Virus record (IMG/VR): IMGVR_UViG_2657245634_000007
Coordinates: 1-17,758 of that record
DNA: 17,758 nt
Strand: one strand, 5' to 3'
Origin: a virus
Lineage: Duplodnaviria; Heunggongvirae; Uroviricota; Caudoviricetes
Shown: one piece after another, positions 1-3,000 of the stretch
Position numbering within the stretch: position 1 is the stretch's first letter
Layout: each line of letters opens with the position of its first letter
Position numbers: made by a program

Positions 1-3000
1 GCAGCCCAGCGAACAGCCTTTAAGAANTANGCCTNNGGNNNNNGNNNCCGGGTTGTATACCTCATCCCTGTAAAGCATCAGAATGATGTCGGCATCCGCC
101 TCGATTTCCCCGGAGTTTTTCAGGTCCGAGTTCATTGGGCGTTTATTGGGTCTGGATTCCACGCCGCGGGAGAGCTGGCTCAGAGCAATCAGCGGAAAAC
201 CGCCGGATTTTGCCAGGCTTTTAAGTCCCTTTGAGATTTCCCCCACCGCAAGGTCGTGACGCCCCGTGCTGCGGGTTTTAATCAGGCCGAGGTAATCGAC
301 CACCACCAGCGCCGTTTCCGGGTGTTTCATCCGGTGGTGCTTCGTGGTTGCACATATCTCATCAATGGTCAGGTTTGCCTGGTCCACCATCCAGATATTA
401 CGCCCCGTCATTCGTCCCACGCCCTGCGAGAAACGCGCCCAGTCTTCATCTTCAAAACGGGCAACAGACTTAAGACGGGATACCGGCATTCCACCGGCAG
501 CAGACACCATACGTTCACCAATCTGGATGTTCGCCATCTCCATGGTGAACAGAAGCACGCCATGCCCCTGCTCAGTCACCTTGTCGATGATGTCCAGCGC
601 AAGTTCGGTTTTCCCCATCGAAGGACGGGCGGCAATGAATACCAGGTCTCCGGGCTCCATACCGCCCGTTTTTGCGTCCAGTTCATCAATACCGGTCATC
701 AGCGCCCTGGATTTCTCCAGTCCCTGATTGCGGCATTCAACACGGTCGACCACTTCCGGAAGGACATCATCAATGTGAACCGGCTGAATGACGCCCTTTC
801 CGGTCGACAGTGAGGCCATCATGTTCTGCGCATCCTTCAGGGCATCCTCGGCTGCTTCACAGGTATACGCATCACGTAAATTCTGTAATGCTTCAGTCAG
901 TGTTTTTTCTGCATCGCGCAGTGCGGCATTGCGCCGTAACGCTGCGACATAGTGCTCCAGTGAAGACTTCACCCAGGTTTTGCGTCCGGTGTCGGTAATC
1001 ACCGGGGCAAGTTCCGGCATCTCATTGCACAGCAGTACGGGGTCAATGACGCCGGATATGCGAGCCTGTCTGCAAATCCCCGCGTAAATATCCCGGTACT
1101 GACGCACAAAAAATACATCCGCCGGAAGTGTGGCCAGAATATCCATCACTTCCGGATCGGCCCCACGCAGAAAAAACGCACCGATGACAGCGCCTTCCAG
1201 GTCATCGTTACGCCATGCCGGGGTGTTCTGGCTGGTCATGCGGCAACACCTCCGATACGAGAACGGTAGCTGGGCCAGTTAAACGACAACCAGTTGCGCC
1301 CGCCATCGGTGATCCTGTCGGCAATCCGGGGACTGATGAACGCCCACAATTCTTCCGGTGAAAGGTTGCTGATCAGGATAGTTGGCAAAATACCCTCATA
1401 CCGGGCATTGATAATTTCCTGCAAAATGGCCATTTCAGCCGCACTGCCAAACTGAACGCCGACTTCGTCGACAATCAGCAAATCCAGTGACGCATAATGC
1501 TCAATGACGTCATCCGCTGTTTTTTCACTGTCATTCCGCCAGCAGTTTTTCACAGCCCGGGTAAGGCGCATCACGTCGGTGATCTCCACACTGGCCAGAT
1601 AGTTACGGATGATGTGTTTTGCCATTGATACCGCCAGATGATTTTTCCCGGTACCGCAACTGCCGGTCATAACAAGACTGGTACCGTTCTCCAGCATATC
1701 TGGCCAGTTCTCCGCATAGCGGCGACAGGCCGCAAGATTTCTGGCTGCGTCAGGATTAACCTCCAGATAATTATCAAACTCGCAGTCCCGAAAACGCAGA
1801 GCAATTCCGGCGTTATCAGTCAGTTCTTCCGCCTTGAGGGACGACAGTTCCATGGTCAAATCACTGGCCTCAGCGATCAAGCAGTCAGGGCAGCATGAAA
1901 TTTTTTCTCTGTCCTCGCCATTACGATCGATCCACACCAGTATATGCGTACGATATTTACCGTGTTTTTCGCAATATCCGCGACCTTCACGCATCAGGCA
2001 GGAACGATAAGGCCATGGCTTTTCGCCCTTCTGAGCAAATGCAATCTCTGCCCGTAACTCATCCATTTCTGCCCGTAACTCATCCATTCGCGCCTGTAGT
2101 CTTGTTTGTTTCTCACGTTGGTCAATCGTCATCATCGCTGTCACCTCAGAATGTCAATTTGTTACTGGATTTACCGAATTTGTCAGACATGGCTCCCAGG
2201 CCAGCCAGGACATCGACCTGTCGCTGTCGCCCACCTCCGTGAGCGGCTGGCTGTTGCCAGTAATCTTCGAAGTGACGATCGGGTCCAAAGAACGTCGCAG
2301 CCTGCTTCACGAACTGTGTGCCGGTATTTCCTGTAGCACGTACCCAGGCGGCATACCGCTTCACGCCATCAAGCATGGTCTCCGGTTTTATTCCCTCCCT
2401 GATACGGGCTTTCCAGGCTTTGAAGGCTGCTGACTTGGAATTGCCACCAGCACGTTTGGGATATTCCTGCCAGGCCTGTTCAAATTCCGGTGAATATTCC
2501 TGTCGGGCAGAACGCGCTGGTGCAGACGCGTCAGCGGATGCGCCAATATCTTGCGGTTCATGTTTTGAATTTACTGGTGGTTCATGTTTTAAACCTTGTG
2601 GATCTGGAGTCAGATTCTGAAGGGTCAAACGCGTATTTTTGCCAGAATCTGAAGGGTCAAACACGCCTGAACATACAGATTCTGACGGTTCAGATTTTGA
2701 AGGTTCAGAATCTGAAGGGTCACGTAATACTGAAAGTCTGCGCTGCTGTTTCAGTTCTGCAACCTTATCCCGCTCAGTTCTGGCAAGCTGCTCAAGCCGA
2801 TCAGCATTCAGATGATAAAGATTGGACGTATTACGGTTACCTTTGCGGCGTGACTGACGCGTCAGCCAGCCATCAGCCTCCAGTTCGGAGATTGCCGTTC
2901 TGACTGTACTTTCTCCCAATCCAAGCTGTCGACATATGGTTTCAACACCCGGGTAGCACACCCCGTCATCATTCGAATAATCAGCCAGGCGCGCCATAAT

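What the first reader, a model, noticed from the sequence alone, without database searches (positions are those of the whole stretch)
2555..2723. Iteron array inside the O-like initiator gene: candidate phage origin
Four copies of an AGAWTCTGAAGGGTCA-type repeat spaced about 31 bp apart, plus two GGTTCATGTTTT repeats in a more AT-rich flank, lie within the linker-coding part of the initiator gene. This is the same layout as oriLambda inside gene O. The repeats impose a repeated, low-complexity peptide segment (DPSDSEPSKSEPSE...) on the protein.
Basis: partly seen in the sequence, partly recalled or inferred. Interest (0 to 1): 0.45.

Follow-up and report, generated by a model that had tools for sequence, protein, structure and literature searches.

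The report
Prophage replication origin inside initiator gene
The repeats are real and are very probably the replication origin of a phiP27-type E. coli prophage, laid out like the textbook lambda origin inside gene O, so it is an ordinary kind of element, although this particular repeat family appears never to have been annotated.

Summary
Window 2610-2722 carries five copies (not four) of an 18-nt repeat. Its core is the palindrome TCAGAWTCTGA. Start-to-start spacing is 32, 33, 15 and 15 bp. There are 8 strand-matches against 0.03 expected by chance, and none elsewhere in the window. Two exact GGTTCATGTTTT copies follow at 2555 and 2579, inside the least stable 40-mer of the gene.

All of this lies in the minus-strand initiator gene (3072..2146). 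It falls in codons for a predicted disordered linker between a winged-helix N-domain and a helical C-domain. DnaC-like and DnaB-like genes lie downstream.

Comparative evidence supports the origin reading:
- Seventy-two of 80 homologous loci from about 40 genera of Enterobacterales keep an intact gene, and all 72 carry the core at the same place (23 per kb against 0.04 per kb elsewhere).
- Synonymous codons in the linker are frozen: Ser is TCA or TCT in 86% of cases against 31% elsewhere.
- One copy is kept in a different reading frame.
- The low-stability block follows the iterons in 66 of 72 genes.
- Alleles sharing the same C-domain but a different N-domain carry entirely different repeats.

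No experiment exists. This is a new member of a known kind, of modest interest.

The parts
2146..3072 (-). Initiator ('O-like') gene, 308 aa. It has an N-terminal winged-helix domain (aa 1-88), a long helix (aa 90-117), a disordered linker (aa 120-190) and a helical C-domain (aa 195-247).
   Evidence: ORF and translation. Pfam HTH_36 over aa 23-70, E 9e-12. PHROG replication initiation protein / O-like. AlphaFold2 domain map. Generic MarR/ArsR-like winged-helix fold matches.
2705..2722 (.). Iteron 1, the first in the direction of gene transcription. Sequence TCAGAATCTGAAGGGTCA, with palindromic core at 2705-2715.
   Evidence: 0 mismatches. Family D1.
2690..2707 (.). Sequence TCAGATTTTGAAGGTTCA.
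   Evidence: 1 mismatch. 15-nt tandem.
2675..2692 (.). Iteron 3. Sequence ACAGATTCTGACGGTTCA.
   Evidence: 2 mismatches..
2642..2659 (.). Iteron 4. Sequence CCAGAATCTGAAGGGTCA.
   Evidence: 1 mismatch..
2610..2627 (.). Iteron 5, next to the AT-rich block. It is read in a different codon frame (LTLQNLT) from iterons 1-4 (DPSDS-type).
   Evidence: 0 mismatches. Frame: (core at gene offset 452, which is 2 mod 3, against 357/372/387/420, which are 0 mod 3).
2549..2604 (.). AT-rich, low-stability block and candidate unwinding element. It holds two 21-24-nt direct repeats containing GGTTCATGTTTT (2555-2566, 2579-2590) and one GATC (2601-2604). The least stable 40-mer of the gene is 2558-2597.
   Evidence: (family D3). 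The homologous block is the least stable 40-mer in 66 of 72 homologous genes.
2522..2548 (.). Mosaic junction. From about 2548 leftwards the gene (C-domain) is shared at 93-99.8% identity with Stx-phage 'O' genes that have different N-domains and different repeats. It includes a 12/14 palindrome, GCAGACGCGTCAGC, at 2522-2535.
   Evidence: Palindrome: (I10).
1236..2144 (-). DnaC-like helicase loader gene (IstB/DnaC AAA+), immediately downstream of the initiator gene.
1..1239 (-). DnaB-family replicative helicase gene. It is cut by the window end, and bases 27-47 are ambiguous.

Best explanation
Window 2549-2722 is the replication origin of a lambdoid (phiP27-replication-type) prophage integrated in yecE of E. 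coli. It is embedded in the linker-coding part of the phage's own initiator gene.

Proposed mechanism. All steps are inferred by analogy with ori-lambda unless marked as shown.
1. Dimers of the initiator bind through the N-terminal winged-helix domain to five 13-bp dyad-symmetric sites, GTCAGAWTCTGAC-like. (Shown: the sites, their dyad symmetry, their conservation, and their exchange together with the N-domain.)
2. Four of the sites (2610, 2642, 2675, 2705) are 30-33 bp apart, about three helical turns, so they lie on one face of the helix. This allows a wrapped nucleoprotein complex to form.
3. The complex destabilises the adjoining least-stable segment, 2558-2597. (Shown: this is the stability minimum of the gene, here and in 66 of 72 homologues.)
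4. The C-terminal domain, which is exchanged as a unit with the downstream genes, recruits the phage DnaC-like loader and DnaB-like helicase onto the opened DNA.
5. Early-rightward transcription from the cro side runs through the site.

The DNA constraints are tolerated because the region encodes a disordered linker. The S/P/D/E-rich peptide is a by-product of the DNA repeats.
For: 1. The repeat array is far beyond chance and unique in the window.

2. Domain map. AlphaFold2 gives a winged helix at aa 1-88 and pLDDT below 50 for aa 120-190, which is the repeat-encoded part. Pfam gives HTH_36 and PHROG gives replication initiation protein. DnaC-like and DnaB-like genes follow.

3. Conservation. 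80 homologous loci were fetched from about 40 genera, with N-domains 55-88% identical. In the 73 intact genes (the window's plus 72 of those loci), the core TCARAWTCTGA with up to 1 mismatch occurs 340 times at +280..+480 (23 per kb). It occurs 16 times in all other DNA of the loci (0.04 per kb). Counts are 4-5 per gene in most.

4. DNA-level selection.
- Ser codons in the linker are TCA or TCT in 86% of cases against 31% in the rest of the genes. AGC is 3% against 30%. Lys AAA is 96% against 65%.
- Wobble positions of the core are as conserved as positions 1 and 2.
- The stretch CACCCGTCAGAATCTG is read HPSESG in Kosakonia L007 but TRQNL in Citrobacter L004 and in the window clade.
- Nucleotide identity of the iteron and AT-rich segments equals or exceeds that of the folded N-domain. 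Against Pectobacterium, the N-domain is 71%, iterons 70%, AT-rich block 85% and C-domain 40%.

5. Specificity co-variation.
- PhiR49_2 and Stx1_14040 have an identical C-domain and the same downstream genes, but different N-domains.
- At the same place they carry different dyad repeats followed by short AT-rich repeats, and they have zero window-type cores.
- A 50%-identical N-domain (L090) has a shifted core, TCAANNNTTGAC, with the same 15-bp period.

6. The least stable 40-mer of the gene starts at +400..+499 in 66 of 72 genes. In the window it is 2558-2597.

7. The array is present in isolated phages phiP27, SfII and YeP2.

8. Iterons inside the initiator gene are the established layout for lambda, P22 and L (PMC8022706; PMC7466680).
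Against: - No binding, unwinding or replication assay exists for this element, and I found none in the literature available to me.
- The AT-rich block is only moderately AT-rich (GC 0.37-0.40).
- In phiP27 itself the single least-stable 40-mer lies elsewhere in the gene, at +227.
- The 73 genes are related by descent, so counts over loci are not independent events.
- The logo was built from core-selected units and is biased towards the core.
- Tandem repeats can be homogenised by slippage without selection. This does not explain the isolated distal copies or the conservation between genera.
- The two GGTTCATGTTTT copies alone are only weakly beyond chance.
- No DnaA box lies in the region. This is neutral, because to my knowledge lambda needs none either.
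Confidence: 0.8

Rival explanations
1. The sites are initiator-binding sites, but they do not act as the origin. They would serve autoregulation (a roadblock in the initiator's own gene), titration, or handcuffing-type copy control. The true origin would lie elsewhere.
For: The co-variation with the N-domain shows only that the sites belong to the N-domain, not that initiation occurs there. Copy number of the tandem units varies from 2 to 6 among E. coli prophages, as would be expected of a tunable regulatory array.
Against: The conserved low-stability block directly follows the sites in 66 of 72 genes. No second repeat array exists in the window or in the 5-kb homologous loci. The layout matches proven origins.
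Confidence: 0.08
2. This is a purely protein-level feature. A low-complexity S/P/D/E linker expanded by replication slippage, and the DNA repeat is just its shadow.
For: The 15-nt period equals 5 codons. Unit number varies in frame, giving protein lengths 298-328 aa in 5-aa steps. The segment is predicted to be disordered.
Against: Frozen synonymous codons. The same DNA is kept in two reading frames. The cores are palindromic. DNA identity is as high as in the folded domain. A completely different repeat set goes with each N-domain allele while the C-domain stays identical.
Confidence: 0.04
3. The conserved block, especially the AT-rich GTAAATTCAAAACATGAWCC part, is a recombination linker at a module boundary. 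On this reading it is conserved because mosaic exchange between prophages keeps happening there, not because it functions in replication.
For: The allele junction lies at about window 2548, immediately next to the block. C-domains differ among homologues that share the N-domain and repeats. Many database fragments of the protein end near aa 170-190.
Against: The block stays conserved where both flanks have diverged to 40-70% nucleotide identity. It belongs to the allele-specific side: PhiR49_2 and Stx1_14040 have other short repeats there. This reading does not explain the dyad iterons.
Confidence: 0.05
4. The repeats are binding sites for a protein other than the initiator, such as a host factor or one of the Rha/Ash/Ant-like regulators encoded upstream.
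For: No binding data exist. Two Rha/Ant-type DNA-binding proteins are encoded at 4335..3481 and 5193..4444.
Against: Homologous loci with the same repeats have different upstream genes; SfII and YeP2 have cII-like and other small genes there. The repeats change only when the initiator N-domain changes.
Confidence: 0.03

Closest known systems
ori-lambda inside gene O of phage lambda, and the six-iteron variant of Stx phages 933W and the Gdansk-laboratory 'P27'
   Same: Direct repeats with internal dyad symmetry lie in the middle of the initiator gene, followed downstream by an AT-rich region. They sit between the codons of the DNA-binding N-domain and those of the C-domain that contacts the helicase-loading partner. 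Iteron number varies between relatives: 4 against 6 there, 4 to 8 here. The repeats add extra residues to the protein (PMC7466680).
   Different: The repeat sequence is unrelated. The sites are shorter (13-bp dyad; tandem period 15 bp plus two sites at 32-33 bp), whereas lambda has roughly 19-20-bp iterons. The initiator matches Pfam HTH_36, not the lambda O family. The partner genes are a DnaC-like AAA+ loader plus a phage DnaB-like helicase, not lambda P acting on host DnaB. The 'P27' of PMC7466680 has a lambda-type O protein (two substitutions from lambda O) and is not the L17 gene of GenBank phiP27 that matches this window.
Origins inside gene 18 of Salmonella phages P22 and L
   Same: Each initiator gene carries its own distinct set of repeats: four of about 20 bp in P22 and six of 11 bp in L. 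These are taken as the origin, and specificity resides in the initiator-plus-origin module. A phage DnaB-type helicase gene lies downstream (PMC8022706).
   Different: The repeat sequences differ, and the N-domain sequences differ (no P22-like phage among the tblastn hits at E<=1e-5). The window's module has an additional DnaC-like loader gene.
Iteron origins of theta-replicating plasmids (pPS10, R6K, RK2, F, P1 type)
   Same: Winged-helix initiator, an array of directly repeated binding sites, and an adjacent AT-rich unwinding element with short repeats. The relatives' version, GATCTTGTTTTGA, resembles the oriC 13-mer GATCTnTTnTTTT.
   Different: The sites lie inside the initiator's own coding sequence, not upstream of it. 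No Rep_3-type family match. No DnaA box in 2400-2800. No plasmid in PLSDB was found that clearly depends on this module.

Membership tests
Lambdoid 'origin inside the initiator gene' (ori-lambda layout) | Three or more directly repeated sites with internal dyad symmetry inside the initiator ORF | tested here: met
   Five copies at 2610-2722 with core palindrome TCAGAWTCTGA. 8 strand-matches against 0.03 expected.
Lambdoid 'origin inside the initiator gene' (ori-lambda layout) | An AT-rich, easily melted segment directly downstream of the iterons in the direction of gene transcription | tested here: met
   GC is 0.37-0.40 at 2540-2640. The least stable 40-mer of the gene is 2558-2597. The same position holds in 66 of 72 homologues. 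Caveat: in phiP27 the single minimum is at +227.
Lambdoid 'origin inside the initiator gene' (ori-lambda layout) | Sites lie in linker codons between the DNA-binding N-domain and the partner-binding C-domain | tested here: met
   AlphaFold2 gives a winged helix at aa 1-88, a disordered stretch at aa 120-190 and a helical C-domain at aa 195-247. The allele alignment shows the same boundaries.
Lambdoid 'origin inside the initiator gene' (ori-lambda layout) | Iterons and the N-domain form one specificity module that is exchanged together | tested here: met
   PhiR49_2 and Stx1_14040 share the C-domain but have other N-domains, other repeats and zero window-type cores. Variant L090 has a shifted core.
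Lambdoid 'origin inside the initiator gene' (ori-lambda layout) | The initiator binds the iterons, and the segment supports initiator-dependent replication | not testable with these tools
   Needs EMSA or footprinting and a plasmid replication assay. No published data were found.
Lambda O protein family (Pfam Phage_rep_O) | Significant match of the N-domain to the family profile | tested here: not met
   The Pfam scan at E<=0.01 lists HTH_36, GntR, PaaX, HTH_29, HTH_28 and MarR_2 only. PHROG families labelled 'replication initiation O-like' do match (E 3e-31). The protein is therefore O-like in role and fold class, but not a member of the lambda O sequence family.
Iteron-plasmid origin (Rep_3 / RepA-pi type) | Rep_3-type initiator, iterons outside the rep gene, and DnaA box(es) in the origin | tested here: not met
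   No Rep_3 match. The iterons are inside the gene. No TTWTNCACA match with up to 1 mismatch lies between 2400 and 2800, and the window total is at chance level.
oriC-type 13-mer unwinding element (GATCTnTTnTTTT) | Tandem AT-rich 13-mers beginning with GATC | tested here: inconclusive
   Relatives carry GATCTTGTTTTGA or GATCATGTTTTGA on the non-coding strand, twice, 24 bp apart, which by my count is about 10 of 13 matches to the consensus. At least one GATC lies within 72 nt after the last iteron in 68 of 72 genes. In this window both copies read GTTC instead of GATC.

The most novel reading that the evidence does not exclude
This may be the type example of a large, so far unannotated family of origins in Enterobacterales prophages and phages (phiP27, SfII/SfIV, YeP2, and many Klebsiella, Yersinia, Proteus and Erwinia prophages). 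Its features differ in detail from lambda:
- very short 13-bp dyad sites packed at a 15-bp period, so neighbouring dimers must overlap or alternate faces of the helix;
- a tandem copy number that is polymorphic (2-6 units) within one species and could tune initiation;
- a GATC-bearing, oriC-13-mer-like unwinding element that would couple firing to Dam/SeqA.

The window allele has lost both of the GATC sites inside the 24-bp repeats, which might let it escape sequestration.
Probability: 0.2. Interest if true: 0.45.

Novelty: new member of a known kind. Interest (0 to 1): 0.3.

Why it matters
The layout is textbook, so no principle changes.

The practical value is in annotation. The gene is labelled only 'helix-turn-helix domain-containing protein', 'unknown' or 'GntR family regulator' in phiP27 and in the 57 of 5426 complete E. 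coli genomes that carry it (1%). No origin is marked in any of the phage or genome records I examined. The motif plus its position gives a simple rule to annotate the origin and the initiator in hundreds of Enterobacterales prophages, including Shiga-toxin phages, where replication drives toxin dose.

The natural allele series (same C-domain, three N-domain and iteron sets; 2-6 tandem units) is also a ready-made system for studying how initiator specificity and origin strength evolve.

Tried and rejected
- Literature. Searches for phiP27 plus origin, for iterons plus lambdoid, for SfV/SfII/SfIV plus ori, and for the literal iteron strings found nothing on this element. The phiP27 and SfV genome papers are not in the library available to me.
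- The 'P27' of PMC7466680 looked like a direct hit. Its O protein is lambda-type, so it concerns a different origin.
- PDB sequence search gave only weak FadR/PaaX winged-helix matches. Foldseek gave only generic MarR/ArsR/TFE winged helices, with nothing specific to initiators.
- DnaA boxes: none in the region, and the window total is at chance level. GATC is not enriched in the window as a whole.
- Plasmids. I hoped to find a small replicon depending on this module. The hits are prophages on large replicons, mis-filed chromosomes, or 15-kb records with a truncated or fused gene, so they were uninformative.
- Frame-independence as a general argument. Only the phiP27/Citrobacter clade (2 of 73 genes) has a core in a second frame. 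The argument rests on that clade compared with the others, not on a family-wide pattern.
- The first protein search returned almost only partial proteins. I therefore used genome loci for the comparative work.
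Full report
THE OBSERVATION

The window's minus strand carries a 308-aa ORF (3072..2146), immediately followed by a 302-aa ORF (2144..1236).

In the + strand of 2610-2722 there are five copies of an 18-nt repeat, TCAGAWTCTGAAGGKTCA. They start at 2610, 2642, 2675, 2690 and 2705, so the spacing is 32, 33, 15 and 15 bp. The last three form a 15-nt tandem. With up to three mismatches the pattern gives 8 strand-matches, all inside 2610-2722. Expectation is 0.03, and none of 200 dinucleotide shuffles reaches 8.

The three reverse-strand matches arise because the core TCAGAWTCTGA is its own reverse complement. The copy at 2690 was missed.

GGTTCATGTTTT occurs exactly twice, at 2555 and 2579. 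This is only weakly beyond chance on its own. It sits in the GC trough of the region, 0.37-0.40.

GENOMIC CONTEXT

The window is the immunity, replication and integration end of a lambdoid prophage inserted in E. coli yecE.
- The 308-aa protein has an HTH_36 winged-helix match at aa 23-70. It matches PHROG 'replication initiation protein' and 'O-like' families.
- The next gene is a DnaC/IstB-type AAA+ loader.
- The gene after that, cut by the window end, is a DnaB-family helicase.
- Upstream lie two Rha/Ash/Ant-type regulators, a cro-side cluster and a divergent CI-like S24 repressor.
- Further on are an excisionase, an integrase, a 5'-truncated yecE (DUF72), yecN, cmoA and cmoB.

An AlphaFold2 model built on 25 homologues gives a winged helix at aa 1-88, a long helix at 90-117, a segment with pLDDT below 50 at 120-190, and a helical C-domain at 195-247. 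Fold search returns only generic MarR/ArsR-type winged helices. The iterons (codons about 117-154) and the AT-rich repeats (codons about 160-175) therefore sit in the disordered linker.

CLOSE RELATIVES AND MOSAICISM

The whole gene is 94% identical only to phiP27 L17 (annotated 'unknown') and to one Stx2a phage. More than twenty other Stx phages match only window 2146-2548, which is the C-domain.

Aligning three such alleles shows a virtually identical C-domain from 'IGASADASAP' onwards, but unrelated or very distant N-domains. At the equivalent place each allele has its own repeats.
- PhiR49_2 has five GTGCA-N5-TKCAC-type dyads and then three GAACCAGTCA.
- Stx1_14040 has three 23-nt units and then 12-nt AT-rich units.
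- Neither locus contains a single window-type core.

This is the iteron and DNA-binding-domain co-variation that defines origin specificity modules in lambdoid phages.

DISTANT RELATIVES

A scan of one genome per species with the N-domain found 80 loci in about 40 genera of Enterobacterales. They include Citrobacter, Kosakonia, Pectobacterium, Yersinia, Providencia, Proteus, Erwinia and Rahnella, with N-domains 55-88% identical. Seventy-two of them have an intact gene without ambiguous bases.

Nearly all carry the motif only at +290..+445 from the start codon. The architecture is conserved:
- four to seven tandem 15-nt units (GAC NCN TCA RAW TCT);
- a spacer;
- one isolated copy inside TTTTCACCCGYCAGAATCTGG;
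- then GATCC..GTAAATTCAAAACAWGATCC.

Quantitatively, the core with up to one mismatch occurs 340 times in +280..+480 (23 per kb). It occurs 16 times in all remaining DNA of the loci (0.04 per kb). Most genes have 4-5 cores.

The array is present in isolated phages phiP27, SfII and YeP2.

IS THE DNA, RATHER THAN THE PEPTIDE, UNDER SELECTION?

Four lines of evidence say it is.
1. Codon choice. All Ser codons in +285..+450 are TCA or TCT in 86% of cases, against 31% in the rest of the same genes. AGC is 3% against 30%. Lys AAA is 96% against 65%. This count does not depend on motif matching.
2. Logo. Wobble positions of the core are as conserved as positions 1 and 2, while the NCN spacer triplet is free. 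The logo is core-selected and therefore biased.
3. Reading frame. Iteron 5 of the window and of Citrobacter L004 is in a different reading frame from the other four. The same CACCCGTCAGAATCTG is read as TRQNL there and as HPSESG in Kosakonia L007. Only this clade shows the frame change.
4. Nucleotide identity. The 'disordered' iteron and AT-rich segments are as conserved as, or more conserved than, the folded N-domain. Against Pectobacterium the figures are 70% and 85% against 71%, with the helix segment and the C-domain at 44% and 40%.

THE UNWINDING ELEMENT

With nearest-neighbour energies, the least stable 40-mer of the whole gene is window 2558-2597. It starts at +400..+499 in 66 of 72 homologous genes.

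At least one GATC lies within 72 nt after the last iteron in 68 of 72 genes. On the other strand the relatives read GATCTTGTTTTGA or GATCATGTTTTGA, twice, 24 bp apart. This resembles the oriC 13-mer consensus, which I quote from memory and did not test functionally.

In this window both copies read GTTC instead of GATC, as in strain RM10042. PhiP27 and most E. coli alleles have GATC. No DnaA box lies in the region.

VARIATION WITHIN E. COLI

The module is in 57 of 5426 complete genomes, always chromosomal, and annotated only as an HTH protein. The tandem part has 2, 3, 4 or 6 units in different strains. Protein lengths run from 298 to 328 aa in 5-aa steps. This parallels the 4-against-6 iteron difference between lambda and Stx phages.

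A 50%-identical N-domain (L090) goes with a changed core, TCAANNNTTGAC, at the same 15-nt period.

MECHANISM

I infer the mechanism by analogy with ori-lambda.
- Initiator dimers bind the dyad sites.
- The four sites spaced 30-33 bp apart lie on one helical face and allow wrapping.
- The adjoining weak segment opens.
- The C-domain brings in the phage DnaC-like loader and DnaB-like helicase.

Shown here are the sites, their symmetry, their selection at DNA level, their linkage to the N-domain, the position of the stability minimum, and the gene neighbourhood. Binding, unwinding and replication are not shown.

COMPARISON WITH WHAT IS KNOWN

Origins made of iterons inside the initiator gene are established for lambda, P22 and L, each with its own repeat (PMC8022706). 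They have been dissected for lambda and Stx phages (PMC7466680). The 'P27' of the latter paper has a lambda-type O protein and is not this module.

The window's element meets every sequence-level criterion of that layout. The protein, however, is not in the lambda O Pfam family, and the element is not an iteron-plasmid type origin.

I found no description of this iteron family. The phiP27 and SfV genome papers could not be read, so a brief earlier mention cannot be excluded.

VERDICT

This is a new member of a known kind. Its main use is in annotating prophage origins, and its interest is modest.

Noticed in passing
window 2555-2590, compared with L001 4405-4448 and alignment A3: Both AT-rich repeats of the window read GAACC (coding strand) where phiP27 and most E. 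coli alleles read GATCC. Two Dam sites are therefore lost in parallel. Strain RM10042 shares the change. One GATC remains, at 2601-2604.
   Followed up: partly
L084-L088 and window 2675-2722 (alignment A3); protein lengths: The number of tandem 15-nt iteron units is polymorphic among E. coli prophages (2, 3, 4 or 6 units). Initiator proteins therefore run from 298 to 328 aa in 5-aa steps.
   Followed up: partly
window 2049-2088: A 21-nt tandem duplication (TGCCCGTAACTCATCCATT, twice) lies in the 5' part of the DnaC-like gene. It gives the repeated peptide (R)MDELRAE-MDELRAE.
   Followed up: no
window 27-47: A run of ambiguous bases (N) lies inside the DnaB-like helicase gene near the window start. 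The translation shows X residues there.
   Followed up: no
window 9287-11174: Three consecutive, overlapping + strand ORFs (240, 228 and 161 aa) all match the same PHROG of unknown function (phrog_368). This is a tandem paralogue array in the early-left operon.
   Followed up: no
window 12905-17462: This is the prophage-host junction. An excisionase (DUF1233) and an integrase (13197-14510) are followed by a 5'-truncated DUF72/yecE (14537-15262), MAPEG/yecN, cmoA and cmoB. The prophage therefore sits in the known yecE Stx-phage integration site.
   Followed up: partly
L075, L082 and L089 (E. coli ECDA1023, ECGI0523, and the 15-kb record OR902851): A homologous N-domain (57% identical, aa 1-90) runs in frame into terminase-large-subunit-like sequence, and no iterons are present. 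It looks like a deletion remnant. It also serves as a natural case where the N-domain is not followed by the array.
   Followed up: partly
L090 about 1975-2180 (pZ1322PEC0161-2): A variant array has core TCAANNNTTGAC at the same 15-nt period, next to an N-domain 50% identical to the window's. It is followed by a block with three GATC sites. The ORF has a stop in the linker.
   Followed up: partly
L091 (SfII) 3445-4584 and L092 (YeP2) 3514-4690: In SfII and YeP2 the initiator gene is followed by a small gene and an annotated DNA adenine methylase, not by DnaC-like and DnaB-like genes. This is suggestive, given the conserved GATC sites in the AT-rich block.
   Followed up: no
proteins P0001-P0011: Many database copies of the protein are 'partial' and end at about aa 100-190, around the repeat array and the mosaic junction. 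This is probably because short-read assemblies break where sequence shared by several prophages begins.
   Followed up: no
window 2522-2535: A 12/14 palindrome, GCAGACGCGTCAGC, sits just inside the shared C-domain module, about 20 bp beyond the AT-rich repeats. As I recall, lambda has an inverted repeat in a comparable position.
   Followed up: no
literature (PMC7466680) compared with GenBank NC_003356: There is a naming trap. The 'phage P27' whose origin has been dissected biochemically has a lambda-type O protein. It is not the replication module of GenBank phiP27 that matches this window.
   Followed up: yes
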